Virus record (IMG/VR): IMGVR_UViG_3300042922_000265
Coordinates: 1 to 64,000 of that record
Length of the DNA stretch: 64,000 bases
Source: a virus
Reading direction: 5' to 3' (one strand)
A program made the position numbers and the translations under genes. The notes under the pieces were generated by a model that saw nothing but the letters and a program-made list of their open reading frames with translations, ran no database searches and was not told where the DNA came from. Numbering within the stretch: the first letter of the stretch is position 1; every line of letters begins with the position of its first letter. Positions 4,160 through 48,623 of the stretch are shown piece by piece.

Positions 4160-4440
4160 TGCTGCTGCTCCCACTTCTGACGCCACCCCTTGGCGCGCCA
4201 CTCACACATACGCTTCCATTTCACCGACCAATGCGGGGCCGCGTCCAGCAAGGACGGCCTCAACACCGCGACCCAGACCGTCTTGCACTCTGGACAGACC
4301 CAGACATCTCCCACATGAGATCGATTCCGATACTCAAGCACATGCTCCTCGTTGGGCCGATGACACCAGTCCTTGGTGCCTTCAGTGTGCTCGAACGGGA
4401 TCTTCTTCTTGCGAACCCAGCCCTGCGGGTTACCGCTCAC
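4156..4440 (-). CDS. Hypothetical protein with a CxxC motif
   Basis: Coupled ORF containing CPEC. Confidence 0.55.
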   Translation of the reverse strand: MSGNPQGWVRKKKIPFEHTEGTKDWCHRPNEEHVLEYRNRSHVGDVWVCPECKTVWVAVLRPSLLDAAPHWSVKWKRMCEWRAKGWRQKWEQQQ

Positions 4441-4751
4441 AGGGTCTCGCGCTTGACCTCGCCGCTACGCTCGTCGGTCCACTTCAGCACATAGCCGTAG
4501 TGGCCACCGCGACCCTCATGCTCGCGCGCGGCGGCTTCCTTGGCCGCGCTCTTGGAGTTGAAGGACTGGGAGACGTAGACAATCTCGTTGTTCTCGCTCA
4601 GGCAGCGCCAGTAGTACTCGCCCGTGATGTCGGGCAATACCTCCAGGATACGCAGCTTCTTGCCTCGGTTCACCGAGGTCGCCTTGTCCCGGCGGCCCCG
4701 ACGGTACGGGGTGAGCTTGGGTACCTCAGTCTTGTCTCGTTGCTTCGCCAT
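4437..4751 (-). CDS. DUF1508/YegP-like protein
   Basis: YYWRCLSENNEIVYVSQSFNSKSAA resembles the DUF1508 consensus. Confidence 0.6.
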   Translation of the reverse strand: MAKQRDKTEVPKLTPYRRGRRDKATSVNRGKKLRILEVLPDITGEYYWRCLSENNEIVYVSQSFNSKSAAKEAAAREHEGRGGHYGYVLKWTDERSGEVKRETL

Positions 4752-6094: not shown

Positions 6095-7744
6095 TTAAAT
6101 CCGGCCAGCCGAGAAATTGCTGATGATCTGCGGCACCGCCGTGTCCATGCCGCTGACATCCAGCGACAGAGGATCGAACGGAGCCACCACCGAGGTTCCG
6201 GTGGAAGTCATCGCACACACGACCAGCCGCGCGTCCGGGTTGACGCGGTTGCGGTACAGCTCCATCACCTGGAAGGGATGGCCGTGACGACCCGCCCACG
6301 TCTCACCGTCGGTGAGGATCACGAACGTGTCGGCCCGGATGCCCTTGGCGATGGCCATCTGGATCGGCTGGGTGACGTCAGTGCCGCCGTTGACCTGCGA
6401 ACGCAGGTACTTGACGTTGTCGTCCAACCGGCGACGGGGCGAGATGTCCAGCGACCACGCACGGGTGTCGAACCCGATGTAGCCGACGTCAGGCTCCGAG
6501 GAACCCACCGCCATGGCCATCACCGCACACGCCTCCAGGCAGGTCAGTGGCATACCGCTGACGCGAGTGCCGCCACCCCACGAGGAGCCCATCGAACCCG
6601 AGCAGTCGATGCCCAGGATCGTGGTCTTACCCGCAGGCTCGATCGTGCCGAGCGAGGCGTAGAACGCATCGTCCAGCGCATCGGTGATCCGACCGACCGG
6701 GGTCCAGGTGCTCGATCCCCGCTCGGACTTGCCCGCCGCGTAGGTGCGCTGTGCCACCAGCAGCTGCATCGGGTGCACGCGGCCCCGCTTGAGGGCCTCG
6801 GCGTCGGTGAGCTGGTTGACCGCCTGGGCTGCCCAAGTGCCATCCCTGCCGTACACCCGCGTCAGACGCGGGAGCTGGCGGATCAGCGCCGTGATCGGCA
6901 TGCCCTTGTCCAGGAGTTCGTCCCAGATGGCAGGCTCGTTGATCCACTTGTCGGGGATCATCTCCCAGGTGACACCGTCGACCTTGAGCAGTTCGGTGAC
7001 CTGCGCGATGGTGTCGACCCGCTGCAGAGCCTCGTAGGCCAGCACGACCTCGGGCAGGGATGCCCGCAGTCGCTTGCCCGCGCGGTCCTTGGTGGTCCGA
7101 CCGGCCAGGTAGTTGTACAGCACCCGGTGGGCGTCGTTCTTGCCCGAAGGGTGGGCCATACGCAGGGCGTCGTTGTGTGCCCAGCCCTCACGCTGCCGGT
7201 ACTTCACCAGCTGGATGGCCAGCTGATCAGCGTCCTTGCCGTCGTACCACTCGCCAACAGCACGCCGGAAAGCGCGACCCCAACCACGGAACTGCTCGGC
7301 GTAGTTGAGGAACTTGAACAGCGAGGTGGCAGTCCGACAGACCTGCGGCAGAGCAGCCAGAGCTGCCTGGCGACCGGCGACGTCCGGGGACGCCGAGGCC
7401 ACTGCCAAAGCGAAGATCGCGGCGTCCTGCTTCGGTGCGCGACCGTTGGTCGACACGTCCACGATGGCCTTGACCAGGGTGAGAGGAGCCTGCTCAGCAG
7501 CCCGCAGCACGACGGCGGCGTTCTCCTTGGTGAGCTGGCGCTCGGAGGTGTAGTACGTACCGCCGTCGGTGCCCAGAGTCAGGAACCGGTGCAGCCGTGC
7601 TTCGTCTCCGATGCTGAAGACGTATCCACCCGCCGCATTCTTGACCTGATCCTTCACCGCAGGACGGCGCTGATCGGTCTTGGACGCAGGCACCGAACGG
7701 GGTGCGCGGGTGCGGATCGACGCGAGCGCGTCATTCTTGGCCAT
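6095..7744 (-). CDS. rsr: Ro60/Rsr TROVE-domain RNA-binding protein
   Basis: NAAGGYVF, RFLTLGTDGGTYY, KYRQREGW.H.D.LR..HP, RVHP and vWA MIDAS DCSGSM...TDGET. Confidence 0.95.
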   Translation of the reverse strand: MAKNDALASIRTRAPRSVPASKTDQRRPAVKDQVKNAAGGYVFSIGDEARLHRFLTLGTDGGTYYTSERQLTKENAAVVLRAAEQAPLTLVKAIVDVSTNGRAPKQDAAIFALAVASASPDVAGRQAALAALPQVCRTATSLFKFLNYAEQFRGWGRAFRRAVGEWYDGKDADQLAIQLVKYRQREGWAHNDALRMAHPSGKNDAHRVLYNYLAGRTTKDRAGKRLRASLPEVVLAYEALQRVDTIAQVTELLKVDGVTWEMIPDKWINEPAIWDELLDKGMPITALIRQLPRLTRVYGRDGTWAAQAVNQLTDAEALKRGRVHPMQLLVAQRTYAAGKSERGSSTWTPVGRITDALDDAFYASLGTIEPAGKTTILGIDCSGSMGSSWGGGTRVSGMPLTCLEACAVMAMAVGSSEPDVGYIGFDTRAWSLDISPRRRLDDNVKYLRSQVNGGTDVTQPIQMAIAKGIRADTFVILTDGETWAGRHGHPFQVMELYRNRVNPDARLVVCAMTSTGTSVVAPFDPLSLDVSGMDTAVPQIISNFSAGRI

Positions 7745-7793: not shown

Positions 7794-7943
7794 AGGTGAT
7801 GCGGACATAGGGGTGCTGTCCGGGTTTTGTACGCGCTCTACCAGACTGAGCTACACCGGCATGTGGTGCCGGTGGAAGGAATCGAACCTCCGACCTCGCG
7901 CTCCTGATGCGATAACCGAATTAGCGATCGGCCCGCATCACCT
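7794..7943 (-). ncRNA. yrlA: Y RNA, YrlA type (Y1)
   Basis: AGGUGAUGCGG terminal stem, GGGCCGA/AUGUCC Ro helix, then T arm (GGAGG UUCGAUU CCUUC), acceptor hairpin and D arm (UAGCUCAGUCUGGUAGAGC). Confidence 0.9.
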
Positions 7944-7962
7944 TTCCTCTATAAAATTTAGC

Positions 7963-8032
7963 GCACGGTCATGAGAACGCTCTCCGGGTTGTTTCGGCAA
8001 ATGAAGGTAACCGAAGTGCTTGCGGCCCGTGC
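7963..8032 (-). ncRNA. Minimal Y RNA without a tRNA module (Y2)
   Basis: GCACGG stem, GGGCCGC/AUGACC, and UUCGGUU...AACCCGGA as in Y1. Confidence 0.75.
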
Positions 8033-8041
8033 TTGATGATT

Positions 8042-45500: not shown

Positions 45501-45503
45501 ATG

Positions 45504-45611
45504 AACACACGGGCATGGGAACGAGGCCGGAGAGGAGGGCTCGAACCTCCATGATTCCTGGTGAGGGAATTTTTAACCAAGTTAACCGACTACTCAATCG
45601 GCCCGTGCGTT
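45504..45611 (-). ncRNA. Y-RNA-like element Y3
   Basis: GGGCCGA...GUCGGUU / AUGCCC; anticodon-like arm followed by a T arm. Confidence 0.75.
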
Positions 45612-45613
45612 TG

Positions 45614-48496: not shown

Positions 48497-48623
48497 GATC
48501 TTGGATATTGCTTGAGGCCGGAACGCCCCGCCAGCACGGTTTCCCGTTGGGGCTGTCCAGACCATGGGTGGTCTGGACTGGAATCGAACCAGTGATAACC
48601 GACTACTCGGTCGACCCAAGATC
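48497..48623 (-). ncRNA. Y-RNA-like element Y6
   Basis: GAUCUUGGGUCGA...GUCGGUU / AUAUCCAAGAUC; T arm, acceptor hairpin, expanded D-like region. Confidence 0.78.

What the first reader, a model, noticed from the sequence alone, without database searches (positions are those of the whole stretch)
45504..45611. Y3: Ro stem replacing the acceptor end of an unpermuted tRNA-like body
Seen: GGGCCGA...GUCGGUU, a degenerate D region (AACUUGGUUAAAA), a 5-bp arm with a 7-nt loop AUUCC-CUCACCA-GGAAU (CAC at the anticodon position), a short linker, a T arm GGAGG-UUCGAGC-CCUCC, then CCGGC...AUGCCC. The arm order is that of a normal tRNA, so the anticodon is displayed and the acceptor is replaced by the Ro handle. 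This is the reverse of YrlA.
Basis: partly seen in the sequence, partly recalled or inferred. Interest (0 to 1): 0.75.

Follow-up and report, generated by a model that had tools for sequence, protein, structure and literature searches.

The report
Phage Y RNA with anticodon-like arm
A 108-base spacer in the tRNA gene array of a Myrna-like mycobacteriophage most likely encodes a small RNA that joins the stem bound by the phage's Ro60 protein to a stripped-down tRNA look-alike in normal arm order. This is a new variant of the known Y RNAs, and one public phage record labels it tRNA-Met.

Summary
On the minus strand, window 45504-45611 fills the whole gap between tRNA-Arg(acg) and tRNA-Val(gac). 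It folds into an 11-bp terminal stem, a GGGCCGA internal loop, a 5-bp second stem (GUCGG/CCGGC), a GG-containing linker, a 5-bp arm with a 7-nt loop (CUCACCA), and a canonical T arm.

Orthologues sit at the same place in ScoobyDoobyDoo, Myrna and Phabba. They keep every helix: 95.8% of cells are paired, and 6 pairs changed on both sides.

The handle occurs 5 times in the window against 0.08 expected. It also flanks the YrlA-like RNA next to the phage's own Ro60 gene and the ET08 locus matched by the YrlA model. In 10 of 10 other viral contigs, RNAs with this handle lie directly upstream of a TROVE gene.

So the Y-RNA reading is well supported, but Ro60 binding is inferred, not shown. Three corrections apply:
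- The order handle, anticodon-like hairpin, T arm is shared with the canonical YrlA copies, so Y3 is not a mirror image of YrlA. It lacks the acceptor hairpin and the D arm.
- D. radiodurans Yrn1 is described in print with the same arm order.
- The "anticodon" is not conserved (CAC, UUA, CAU).

The scan had noted sister RNAs in this same genome, but none on other DNA. Verdict: new variant of a known kind, of moderate interest.

The parts
45601..45611 (-). Terminal stem, 5' strand (AACGCACGGGC). It starts 1-2 nt after the 3' end of tRNA-Arg(acg).
   Evidence: Pairs with 45504-45514 in the MFE fold. In the four orthologues the 10 aligned pairs include 3 with changes on both sides.
45598..45604 (-). 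GGGCCGA, the presumed Ro60-contact motif. GGGC closes the terminal stem and CGA opens the internal loop.
   Evidence: It is part of the handle motif found 5 times against 0.08 expected. The same motif heads the YrlA-like RNA beside the Ro60 gene and the ET08 locus matched by the YrlA model. It differs by one base from the GGUCCGA contacted by X. laevis Ro60, as quoted in PMC4201824.
45591..45600 (-). 5' side of the internal loop of the handle (CGAUUGAGUA). UGAG can pair with CUCG on the 3' side.
   Evidence: MFE fold. Length and sequence vary among the 61 family members.
45586..45590 (-). Stem 2, 5' strand (GUCGG), in the acceptor-stem position.
   Evidence: Pairs with CCGGC at 45526-45530. 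Across 61 family RNAs the outer pair covaries: A-U 15 of 15, U-A 4 of 4, and G with C or U in 42. Rare inner variants are compensated.
45571..45585 (-). UUAAC plus a GG-containing linker (UUAACUUGGUUAAAA), the degenerate D region. UUAA corresponds to the YUAY motif of YrlA.
   Evidence: GG and the A-rich tail align in all four orthologues. With the anticodon-like arm forced, the linker can form a weak hairpin, UUAAC-UUG-GUUAA. That hairpin is not conserved.
45554..45570 (-). Anticodon-like arm AUUCC-CUCACCA-GGAAU: 5-bp stem and 7-nt loop, with CAC at 45561-45563.
   Evidence: Chosen by RNAalifold. The loop-closing pair is C-G in the window and ScoobyDoobyDoo and A-U in Myrna and Phabba. The loops are CUCACCA, CUUUACA and CUCAUAA.
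45534..45550 (-). T arm GGAGG-UUCGAGC-CCUCC, preceded by a 3-nt linker (CAU, 45551-45553).
   Evidence: The loop has the canonical UUCRANY form in all four orthologues. Two stem pairs changed on both sides.
45526..45530 (-). Stem 2, 3' strand (CCGGC), preceded by UCU (45531-45533).
   Evidence: It is followed by N-CCA in ScoobyDoobyDoo, Myrna and Phabba but by CUCG in the window.
45515..45525 (-). 3' side of the internal loop of the handle (CUCGUUCCCAU), ending in the conserved AU.
   Evidence: All window paralogues end this stretch with AU before the stem.
45504..45514 (-). Terminal stem, 3' strand (GCCCGUGUGUU). It ends 2-3 nt before the 5' end of tRNA-Val(gac).
6095..7744 (-). Phage Ro60 gene (549 aa, TROVE + vWA_Ro60), the presumed protein partner. 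It lies on the same strand, 37.8 kb away.
   Evidence: Pfam TROVE 167 bits and vWA_Ro60 140 bits. Matches X. laevis Ro60 (1yvp) at 6e-93 and D. radiodurans Rsr (2nvo) at 3e-91.
7800..7941 (-). YrlA-type RNA directly upstream of the Ro60 gene, carrying the same handle. It serves as the reference for the handle.
   Evidence: Rfam YrlA 36.8 bits, E 2e-6, over the tRNA-like core. Handle GGGCCGAUCGCUAAUUCGGUUAUC.

Best explanation
Y3 is a phage Y RNA, a paralogue of the YrlA-type RNAs of Ro60-encoding mycobacteriophages. It lies inside the tRNA operon and is probably released by the tRNA-processing enzymes that cut its neighbours; this is inferred. Its two ends pair into a handle made of a terminal stem, an internal loop that begins GGGC|CGA, and a 5-bp second stem. 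The phage's own Ro60 protein most likely binds this handle; that is inferred from motif sharing and gene association. The second stem closes a reduced tRNA-like module in normal tRNA order: a GG-containing linker in place of the D arm, a 5-bp arm with a 7-nt loop, a short linker, and a canonical T arm. By analogy with Yrn1 and YrlA, this module would tether Ro60 to a partner that binds tRNA or structured RNA, such as host PNPase or a tRNA enzyme, or would gate the Ro60 cavity. The identity of the partner is unknown.
For: The structure is conserved in four phages that are only about 72-77% identical here: 95.8% of cells are paired against 30-49% with slid partners, and 6 pairs changed on both sides. 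The handle motif occurs 5 times in the window against 0.08 expected, always on the minus strand; four copies are in the tRNA array and one is 170 nt upstream of the Ro60 gene, attached to a YrlA-model match. The ET08 locus matched by the YrlA model has the same handle, and the paper names ET08 as a YrlA host. In 10 of 10 other viral contigs where model R1 finds this handle, a TROVE gene lies directly downstream on the same strand. Stem 2 covaries across 61 family RNAs. The phage Ro60 gene is full length. The element fills the spacer to within 1-3 nt of both flanking tRNAs in all four phages. Published support: Y RNAs co-transcribed with a tRNA, and tRNA-like modules in Yrn1 and YrlA (PMC4201824); a phage Ro60 that binds phage Y RNAs and host PNPase in vitro (PMC12135203).
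Against: There is no expression, end-mapping or Ro60-binding data. The element is 37.8 kb from the Ro60 gene, unlike published YrlA RNAs, which lie within 4 kb. It gets no meaningful Rfam YrlA score. The nearly invariant T- and D-stem sequences of YrlA are absent, so the YrlA effector may not bind it. The single-sequence ensemble is split: stem 2 has probability about 0.41 and a competing local CGA/UCG hairpin about 0.57; the anticodon-like arm has about 0.27 and an alternative helix about 0.67. Only four orthologues exist, and two of them (Myrna and Phabba) are close relatives.
Confidence: 0.7

Rival explanations
1. It is a caged, unusual tRNA precursor. RNase P cuts 5' of GUCGG and the 3' trailer is trimmed to N-CCA, releasing a tRNA-like RNA of about 75 nt that is charged or otherwise used in translation. 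The handle would be only a paired leader and trailer, perhaps for Ro60-assisted quality control.
For: ARAGORN calls the Myrna orthologue tRNA-Met(cat), and the public Myrna record annotates it as gene 163. N-CCA follows stem 2 in 3 of 4 orthologues, although ordinary tRNA genes of these arrays do not encode CCA. M. smegmatis YrlA is cut by RNase P and receives CCA in vivo (PMC4201824).
Against: The anticodon differs between orthologues (CAC, UUA, CAU). Position 37 is C in the window and ScoobyDoobyDoo. There is no D stem. The acceptor has 5 bp plus mismatches. Phabba has a UUCG hairpin inserted between the T stem and the acceptor strand. The window copy lacks CCA. Neither ARAGORN nor Rfam tRNA calls the window, ScoobyDoobyDoo or Phabba copies. 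The window already has tRNA-Val(cac).
Confidence: 0.1
2. It is a decaying tRNA pseudogene or inert spacer that happens to keep a T arm, with no function of its own.
For: tRNA-rich phage arrays contain pseudo-tRNAs; ET08 has several annotated. The D region is degenerate and tRNA finders miss it.
Against: Compensatory changes keep all four helices. The handle is shared with RNAs next to Ro60 genes in 15 phage genomes or contigs. The position is kept in four diverged phages. The body is not a copy of a neighbouring tRNA.
Confidence: 0.1
3. It is a processing or stability element of the polycistronic tRNA transcript, for example a long stem cut by RNase III or a spacer that helps neighbouring tRNAs fold, and it has nothing to do with Ro60.
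For: An 11-bp terminal stem abuts both tRNAs. No promoter or terminator lies nearby.
Against: It does not explain the conserved GGGCCGA...UCGGUUAYC...CCGG...AU handle, its link to TROVE genes, or the conserved T arm and 7-nt-loop arm. Most other spacers of the array have no such stem.
Confidence: 0.05

Closest known systems
YrlA RNAs of Ro60-encoding mycobacteriophages and bacteria (Rfam RF02553; Chen et al. 2014, PMC4201824; structure in 10.1101/312249)
   Same: The handle is the same (stem, GNCGA-type motif, UUAYC/YUAY). Both have a tRNA-like effector module with a canonical T arm, occur in phages that encode Ro60, and place a hairpin with an anticodon-loop-like 7-nt loop ahead of the T arm.
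   Different: Y3 has no acceptor hairpin and no D arm, and its T-stem sequence is not the conserved YrlA one. A GG linker lies 5' of the hairpin. The closing stem takes the acceptor position, not the anticodon-stem position. Y3 lies in the tRNA array 37.8 kb from the Ro60 gene, and the YrlA model does not score it.
Deinococcus radiodurans Yrn1 (Chen et al. 2000, 2013, 2014)
   Same: According to the paper's text, Yrn1 has the Ro60-binding stem formed by the two ends, then D-loop-like features without a full D arm, a 5-bp anticodon-like arm and a T arm in tRNA order. It is co-transcribed with a tRNA.
   Different: The Yrn1 loop has 6 nt, whereas Y3 has the tRNA-like 7. The Yrn1 handle keeps both strands of the metazoan-type helix. 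Sequence relatedness could not be tested here because the Yrn1 sequence could not be retrieved. Yrn1 lies next to rsr.
Ordinary phage tRNA genes and pseudo-tRNAs of cluster C mycobacteriophages
   Same: Same location in the tRNA array, same arm order and a T arm. The Myrna copy is annotated tRNA-Met.
   Different: Y3 has no D stem, a 5-bp acceptor, and an anticodon that is unstable between orthologues. It is enclosed in the Y-RNA handle.
Yrl1 and Yrl2 of Thermus phage phiLo (PMC12135203)
   Same: They are phage-encoded Y-like RNAs shown to bind a phage Ro60 and to form complexes with host PNPase in vitro. This is the functional model used here.
   Different: The phage lineage is unrelated. Their sequences and structures were not compared here.

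Membership tests
Y RNA (general definition, PMC4201824) | 80-130 nt, with 5' and 3' ends paired into a long stem | tested here: met
   The element is 108 nt between two tRNAs. It has an 11-bp terminal stem plus stem 2, conserved in four orthologues. The true RNA ends were not mapped.
Y RNA (general definition, PMC4201824) | The stem carries a Ro60-binding motif (GGUCCGA type, or GNCGAAN0-1G in YrlA) | tested here: inconclusive
   GGGCCGA is one base off GGUCCGA, and GCCGAU is one base off GNCGAA. The same motif occurs in the YrlA-type RNA beside the Ro60 gene. Binding itself was not tested.
Y RNA (general definition, PMC4201824) | Bound and stabilised by Ro60 | not testable with these tools
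   Only association is available: the genome has a full-length Ro60 gene, and 10 of 10 other contigs with this handle have a TROVE gene next to it.
YrlA (RF02553) | Score at or above the Rfam gathering threshold (69 bits) | tested here: not met
   There is no match within Y3 at E up to 10. Only matches of 13.5-14.7 bits straddle it and a neighbouring tRNA. The ET08 locus also scores only 37.4 bits, so the threshold is too strict for phage copies.
YrlA (RF02553) | T arm, then acceptor-like hairpin, then D arm (permuted tRNA), with nearly invariant T and D stems | tested here: not met
   Y3 has a T arm only, with no acceptor hairpin and no D arm. The T stem is GGAGG/CCUCC and varies between orthologues.
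YrlA (RF02553) | Encoded within about 4 kb of the Ro60 gene on the same strand | tested here: not met
   The strand is the same, but the distance is 37.8 kb. Two other handle RNAs do lie within 300 nt of the gene.
YrlA (RF02553) | Conserved YUAY after the 5' motif | tested here: met
   UUAU in ScoobyDoobyDoo, Myrna and Phabba, and UUAA in the window.
Yrn1-type architecture | Ro stem at the acceptor position, partial D loop, 5-bp anticodon-like arm and T arm in tRNA order | tested here: met
   The Yrn1 side rests on the text of PMC4201824, not on a sequence examined here.
Yrn1-type architecture | Sequence homology to Yrn1 | not tested
   Searches with the published Yrn1 probe sequence found no Deinococcus locus.
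tRNA | Recognised by tRNA finders (ARAGORN; Rfam RF00005 at 29 bits or more) | tested here: not met
   The window copy is not called. Only the Myrna orthologue is called by ARAGORN.
tRNA | 7-bp acceptor stem, D stem-loop, and an anticodon kept between orthologues | tested here: not met
   Y3 has a 5-bp stem plus mismatches and no conserved D stem. The anticodons are CAC, UUA, CAU and CAU.

The most novel reading that the evidence does not exclude
The Ro60 handle is a modular display scaffold. These phages mount different tRNA parts on it: whole permuted tRNAs, T arm only, anticodon stem-loop only, or anticodon arm plus T arm as in Y3. Y3-type and anticodon-loop-only cargos would act as Ro60-tethered decoys or baits for host factors that read anticodon loops, for example the VapC- or MazF-type tRNases of mycobacteria discussed in PMC10264068. 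The anticodon-like loop would change quickly between phages as the targets change.
Probability: 0.12. Interest if true: 0.85.

Novelty: new variant of a known kind. Interest (0 to 1): 0.55.

Why it matters
Bacterial and phage Y RNAs are known as tRNA mimics, but their effector partners are still unknown. Y3 shows that within one phage lineage the same Ro60 handle carries very different tRNA-derived modules. One is a minimal module in normal arm order that keeps a T arm and a 7-nt-loop arm but drops the D arm and the acceptor hairpin. This gives natural deletion variants for asking which part of the tRNA mimic recruits which partner. It extends phage Y RNAs from the Ro60 locus into tRNA operons, and it fits the published idea that these RNAs arose from tRNA transcripts. 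It also corrects an annotation: Myrna gene 163 (tRNA-Met) is the Y3 orthologue and most likely does not decode.

Tried and rejected
- Rfam, at gathering and at E up to 10, gave no family for Y3. The YrlA and tRNA models score only neighbours or straddling pseudo-dimers.
- blastn with the 111-nt element alone found nothing useful in the phage collection.
- The search for related loci with the neighbouring helicase found no close relatives in IMG/VR.
- A first Y3-specific pattern found nothing in IMG/VR. A looser one found only Myrna and Phabba.
- The same looser pattern gave 30 hits in metagenome contigs. None scored with model R1, so they are chance matches.
- Cluster C1 phages (ET08, Erdmann) have no element between tRNA-Arg(acg) and tRNA-Val(gac) and lack the exact GGGYCG...YCGGTT spelling in their arrays.
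- A loosened handle pattern has a real background: the reversed-pattern control gave 5 hits per genome. Only the strict pattern and the model hits were therefore used.
- My shuffled-5-mer control for stem 2 was uninformative in GC-rich tails, so I rely on the covariation of the outer pair instead.
- I tried to fetch D. radiodurans Yrn1 through its published probe sequence. The search found no exact match and then only chance matches.
- The idea that the Y3 body is a recent copy of a neighbouring tRNA is rejected: only T-loop similarity of 13-21 nt was found.
- A protein-coding reading is rejected: the only overlapping ORFs run through the flanking tRNA genes.

Full report
**1. What is there**

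The window is the first 64 kb of a 167,373-bp viral record with terminal repeats. It carries 29 tRNA genes and a tmRNA; 27 of the tRNA genes lie in a minus-strand array between 43.5 and 49.1 kb. The closest public phages are ScoobyDoobyDoo, Phabba and Myrna, all in the genus Myrnavirus. They are only about 72-77% identical to the window in this region.

The finding covers the whole spacer between tRNA-Arg(acg) (45613/4-45687) and tRNA-Val(gac) (45426-45500/1). The 111-nt stretch folds to -40.2 kcal/mol, with z = -3.49, and none of 200 shuffles folds as well. ARAGORN and Rfam report nothing inside it, even at E up to 10.

**2. Orthologues and structure**

The same spacer follows tRNA-Arg(acg) in three relatives:
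- ScoobyDoobyDoo, L001:3093-3198
- Myrna, L016:3966-4080
- Phabba, L017:3897-4018

RNAalifold on the four sequences returns the following structure:
- a 10-bp terminal stem
- a 5-bp second stem, GUCGG/CCGGC
- a 5-bp arm with a 7-nt loop
- a T arm

On that structure 95.8% of cells are standard pairs, against 30-49% when the partners are slid by 1-3 columns. Six pairs have changes on both sides: three in the terminal stem, one in the anticodon-like arm (C-G to A-U at the loop-closing pair) and two in the T arm. The caveat is that there are only four sequences and two of them are close relatives.

In the window copy alone, the anticodon-like arm competes with another helix, CUUGGU/ACCAGG. Enforcing the arm costs 0.7 kcal/mol and yields a cloverleaf with a weak D-like hairpin. 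That hairpin is not conserved. What is conserved in the linker is UUAYC, a GG, and an A-rich tail. All four T loops are canonical (UUCGAGC, UUCAAGU, UUCGAGU, UUCAAAU).

**3. The handle is the Y-RNA handle of these phages**

The strict motif GGGYCGA-N(3-12)-UCGGUU occurs five times in the window, all on the minus strand, against 0.08 expected. Four copies lie in spacers of the tRNA array: at 48617, 47169 and 45824, plus Y3 at 45604. The fifth, at 7934, lies about 170 nt upstream of the start of a 549-aa gene. [quoted passage not shown]

The copy at 7934 is fused to a tRNA-like core that the Rfam YrlA model matches at 36.8 bits. A sixth, looser copy sits at 8028.

ScoobyDoobyDoo, Myrna and Phabba show the same split between the array and the Ro60 locus. 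Phage ET08 is named in Chen et al. 2014 as a YrlA host. Its locus matched by the YrlA model has the same design: stem, GGCCGA-N7-GUCGGUUAC, then CCGG...AU and stem.

A covariance model built from the four Y3 orthologues (R1) finds the handle in ten further IMG/VR contigs, often as tandem arrays. In all ten, a TROVE gene lies directly downstream on the same strand.

I examined 61 family RNAs. The five bases before UUAYC pair with a 3' CCGGN in every one. The outer pair covaries: A with U in 15 of 15, U with A in 4 of 4, and G with C (25) or U (17). Rare inner variants are compensated: GCUGG/CCAGU, AUCAG/CUGGU and GACGG/CCGUU. In several of these variants the competing local hairpin, CCGA with UCGG, is broken. 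So the comparative data favour stem 2.

The handle therefore consists of a terminal stem whose top is GGGY/RYCC, then an internal loop (5' side CGR plus 5-10 nt, 3' side a variable stretch ending in A-Y), then stem 2. GGGCCGA differs by one base from the GGUCCGA that X. laevis Ro60 contacts, as quoted in PMC4201824.

**4. How Y3 relates to its sisters**

Canonical family members have, after UUAYC, this order:
- a short hairpin whose 7-nt loop usually reads CUNNNAA
- a linker of about 5 nt
- the T arm
- an acceptor-like hairpin, often with ACCA in its loop
- a D arm

The hairpin starts 18-21 nt before the T arm, which is tRNA spacing. Chen et al. call this hairpin V.

Y3 keeps the order hairpin, linker, T arm. 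Its hairpin has 5 bp. A GG linker has been added in front of it, and nothing follows the T arm except stem 2.

Three observations favour that reading:
- ARAGORN calls the Myrna copy tRNA-Met(cat), and GenBank annotates it as gene 163.
- The linker contains a conserved GG.
- N-CCA follows stem 2 in ScoobyDoobyDoo (ACCA), Myrna and Phabba (UCCA), although ordinary tRNA genes of these arrays do not encode CCA.

Three observations argue against a working tRNA:
- The anticodon is CAC, UUA, CAU and CAU in the four orthologues, and position 37 is C in two of them.
- The acceptor has 5 bp, followed by U-U and U-C mismatches.
- Phabba has an extra UUCG hairpin between the T stem and the acceptor strand, and the window copy has CUCG instead of NCCA.

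The body is not a recent copy of a neighbouring tRNA. Cargos of similar design, a 7-nt-loop hairpin followed at tRNA spacing by a T arm with no D arm, occur at L107:552-670, L150:5644-5761 and L099:4780-4904. Cargos made of an anticodon-like stem-loop alone occur at L066:9163-9252 and L157:8472-8562.

**5. Mechanism**

What is shown:
- conserved structure
- a handle shared with RNAs at the Ro60 locus
- tight genomic linkage of the handle to TROVE genes
- a full-length phage Ro60 gene
- exact filling of the spacer between two tRNAs

What is inferred:
- The RNA is made as part of the tRNA operon transcript. No promoter or terminator is nearby.
- It is freed by the enzymes that mature the flanking tRNAs. 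D. radiodurans Yrn1 and Yrn2 are likewise made together with tRNA-Asp.
- Ro60 binds the GGGCCGA region.
- The tRNA-like module recruits a partner or gates the Ro60 ring. Yrn1 does this with PNPase, and a Thermus phage Ro60 with its Y RNAs and host PNPase does so in vitro (PMC12135203).

The Y3 T stem does not carry the nearly invariant YrlA T-stem sequence, and Y3 has no D arm. The authors of 10.1101/312249 expect the YrlA effector to recognise the T-D elbow with some sequence specificity. That effector may therefore not bind Y3, so Y3 may serve a different partner.

**6. Comparison with the literature and novelty**

The closest family is YrlA. Y3 shares the handle, the YUAY motif and a T arm, but it fails the defining permuted T-acceptor-D core, the model score and the proximity rule.

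The closest architecture is D. radiodurans Yrn1. The paper describes Yrn1 as having D-loop features, a 5-bp anticodon-like arm with a 6-nt loop, and a T arm, in the opposite orientation to YrlA. The idea of a Y RNA with an unpermuted tRNA-like module is therefore not new. I could not compare the sequences.

I found no paper describing Y RNAs inside the tRNA arrays of Myrna-like phages, or a Y RNA with a 7-nt anticodon-like loop plus T arm and no D arm. The supplements of Chen et al. are not held, so I cannot exclude that their tables list such loci.

Earlier notes of this scan flagged the sister RNAs and the shared scaffold in this same genome. I re-derived the scaffold independently. Nothing similar was noted on other DNA.

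**7. Verdict**

Y3 is a new variant of a known kind. My confidence that it is a Y-family RNA is about 0.7. Its interest is moderate, and higher when it is seen as one cargo of a modular family.

Noticed in passing
L107:343-1681 (IMGVR_UViG_3300048999_000166); also L066:8911-9539, L120:750-1625, L073:5106-5993, L118:12218-12540, L137:1270-1500 and 4403-4539: Tandem arrays of up to about ten handle-bearing Y-like RNAs lie directly upstream of TROVE genes in uncultured phage contigs. Their cargos differ from copy to copy: full permuted tRNA, T arm only, short hairpins.
   Followed up: partly
L066:9163-9252 and L157:8472-8562: These Y-handle RNAs carry little more than an anticodon-like stem-loop: CCUGA-CUUCUAA-UCAGG and CCUGA-CUCCUAA-UCAGG, which are tRNA-Arg UCU/CCU-like loops. 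They have no T or D arm.
   Followed up: no
L016:3986-4060 (Myrna gene 163); also Myrna gene 161, ScoobyDoobyDoo gene 159 and Phabba gt024: Public records annotate Y-RNA cargos as tRNA genes. The Y3 orthologue in Myrna is labelled tRNA-Met. The cargo of the neighbouring Y4-type RNA is labelled suppressor, OTHER or Ser.
   Followed up: partly
window 7958-8035 (-): A second, short handle RNA lies upstream of the Ro60 gene. Its cargo is only about 17 nt (UUCAUUUGCCGAAACAA), so it resembles YrlB. Counterparts exist in ScoobyDoobyDoo, Myrna and Phabba.
   Followed up: no
L017:3958-3985 (Phabba): The Phabba Y3 orthologue has an extra UUCG-tetraloop hairpin (AGGCC-UUCG-GGUCU) between the T arm and stem 2. 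Myrna instead has a 6-8-nt insertion in the D-like linker.
   Followed up: partly
L018:2488-2530 (Erdmann, cluster C1): An unannotated element downstream of the peptidyl-tRNA hydrolase gene looks like a T-arm minihelix closed by GCCGG/CCGGC and followed by ACCA. More T-arm-like hairpins follow within 250 nt.
   Followed up: no
window 45502-45612 (-): The single-sequence ensemble is split between stem 2 (probability about 0.41) and a local CGA/UCG hairpin (about 0.57). This could reflect a conformational switch in the handle, or only the limits of the energy model.
   Followed up: partly
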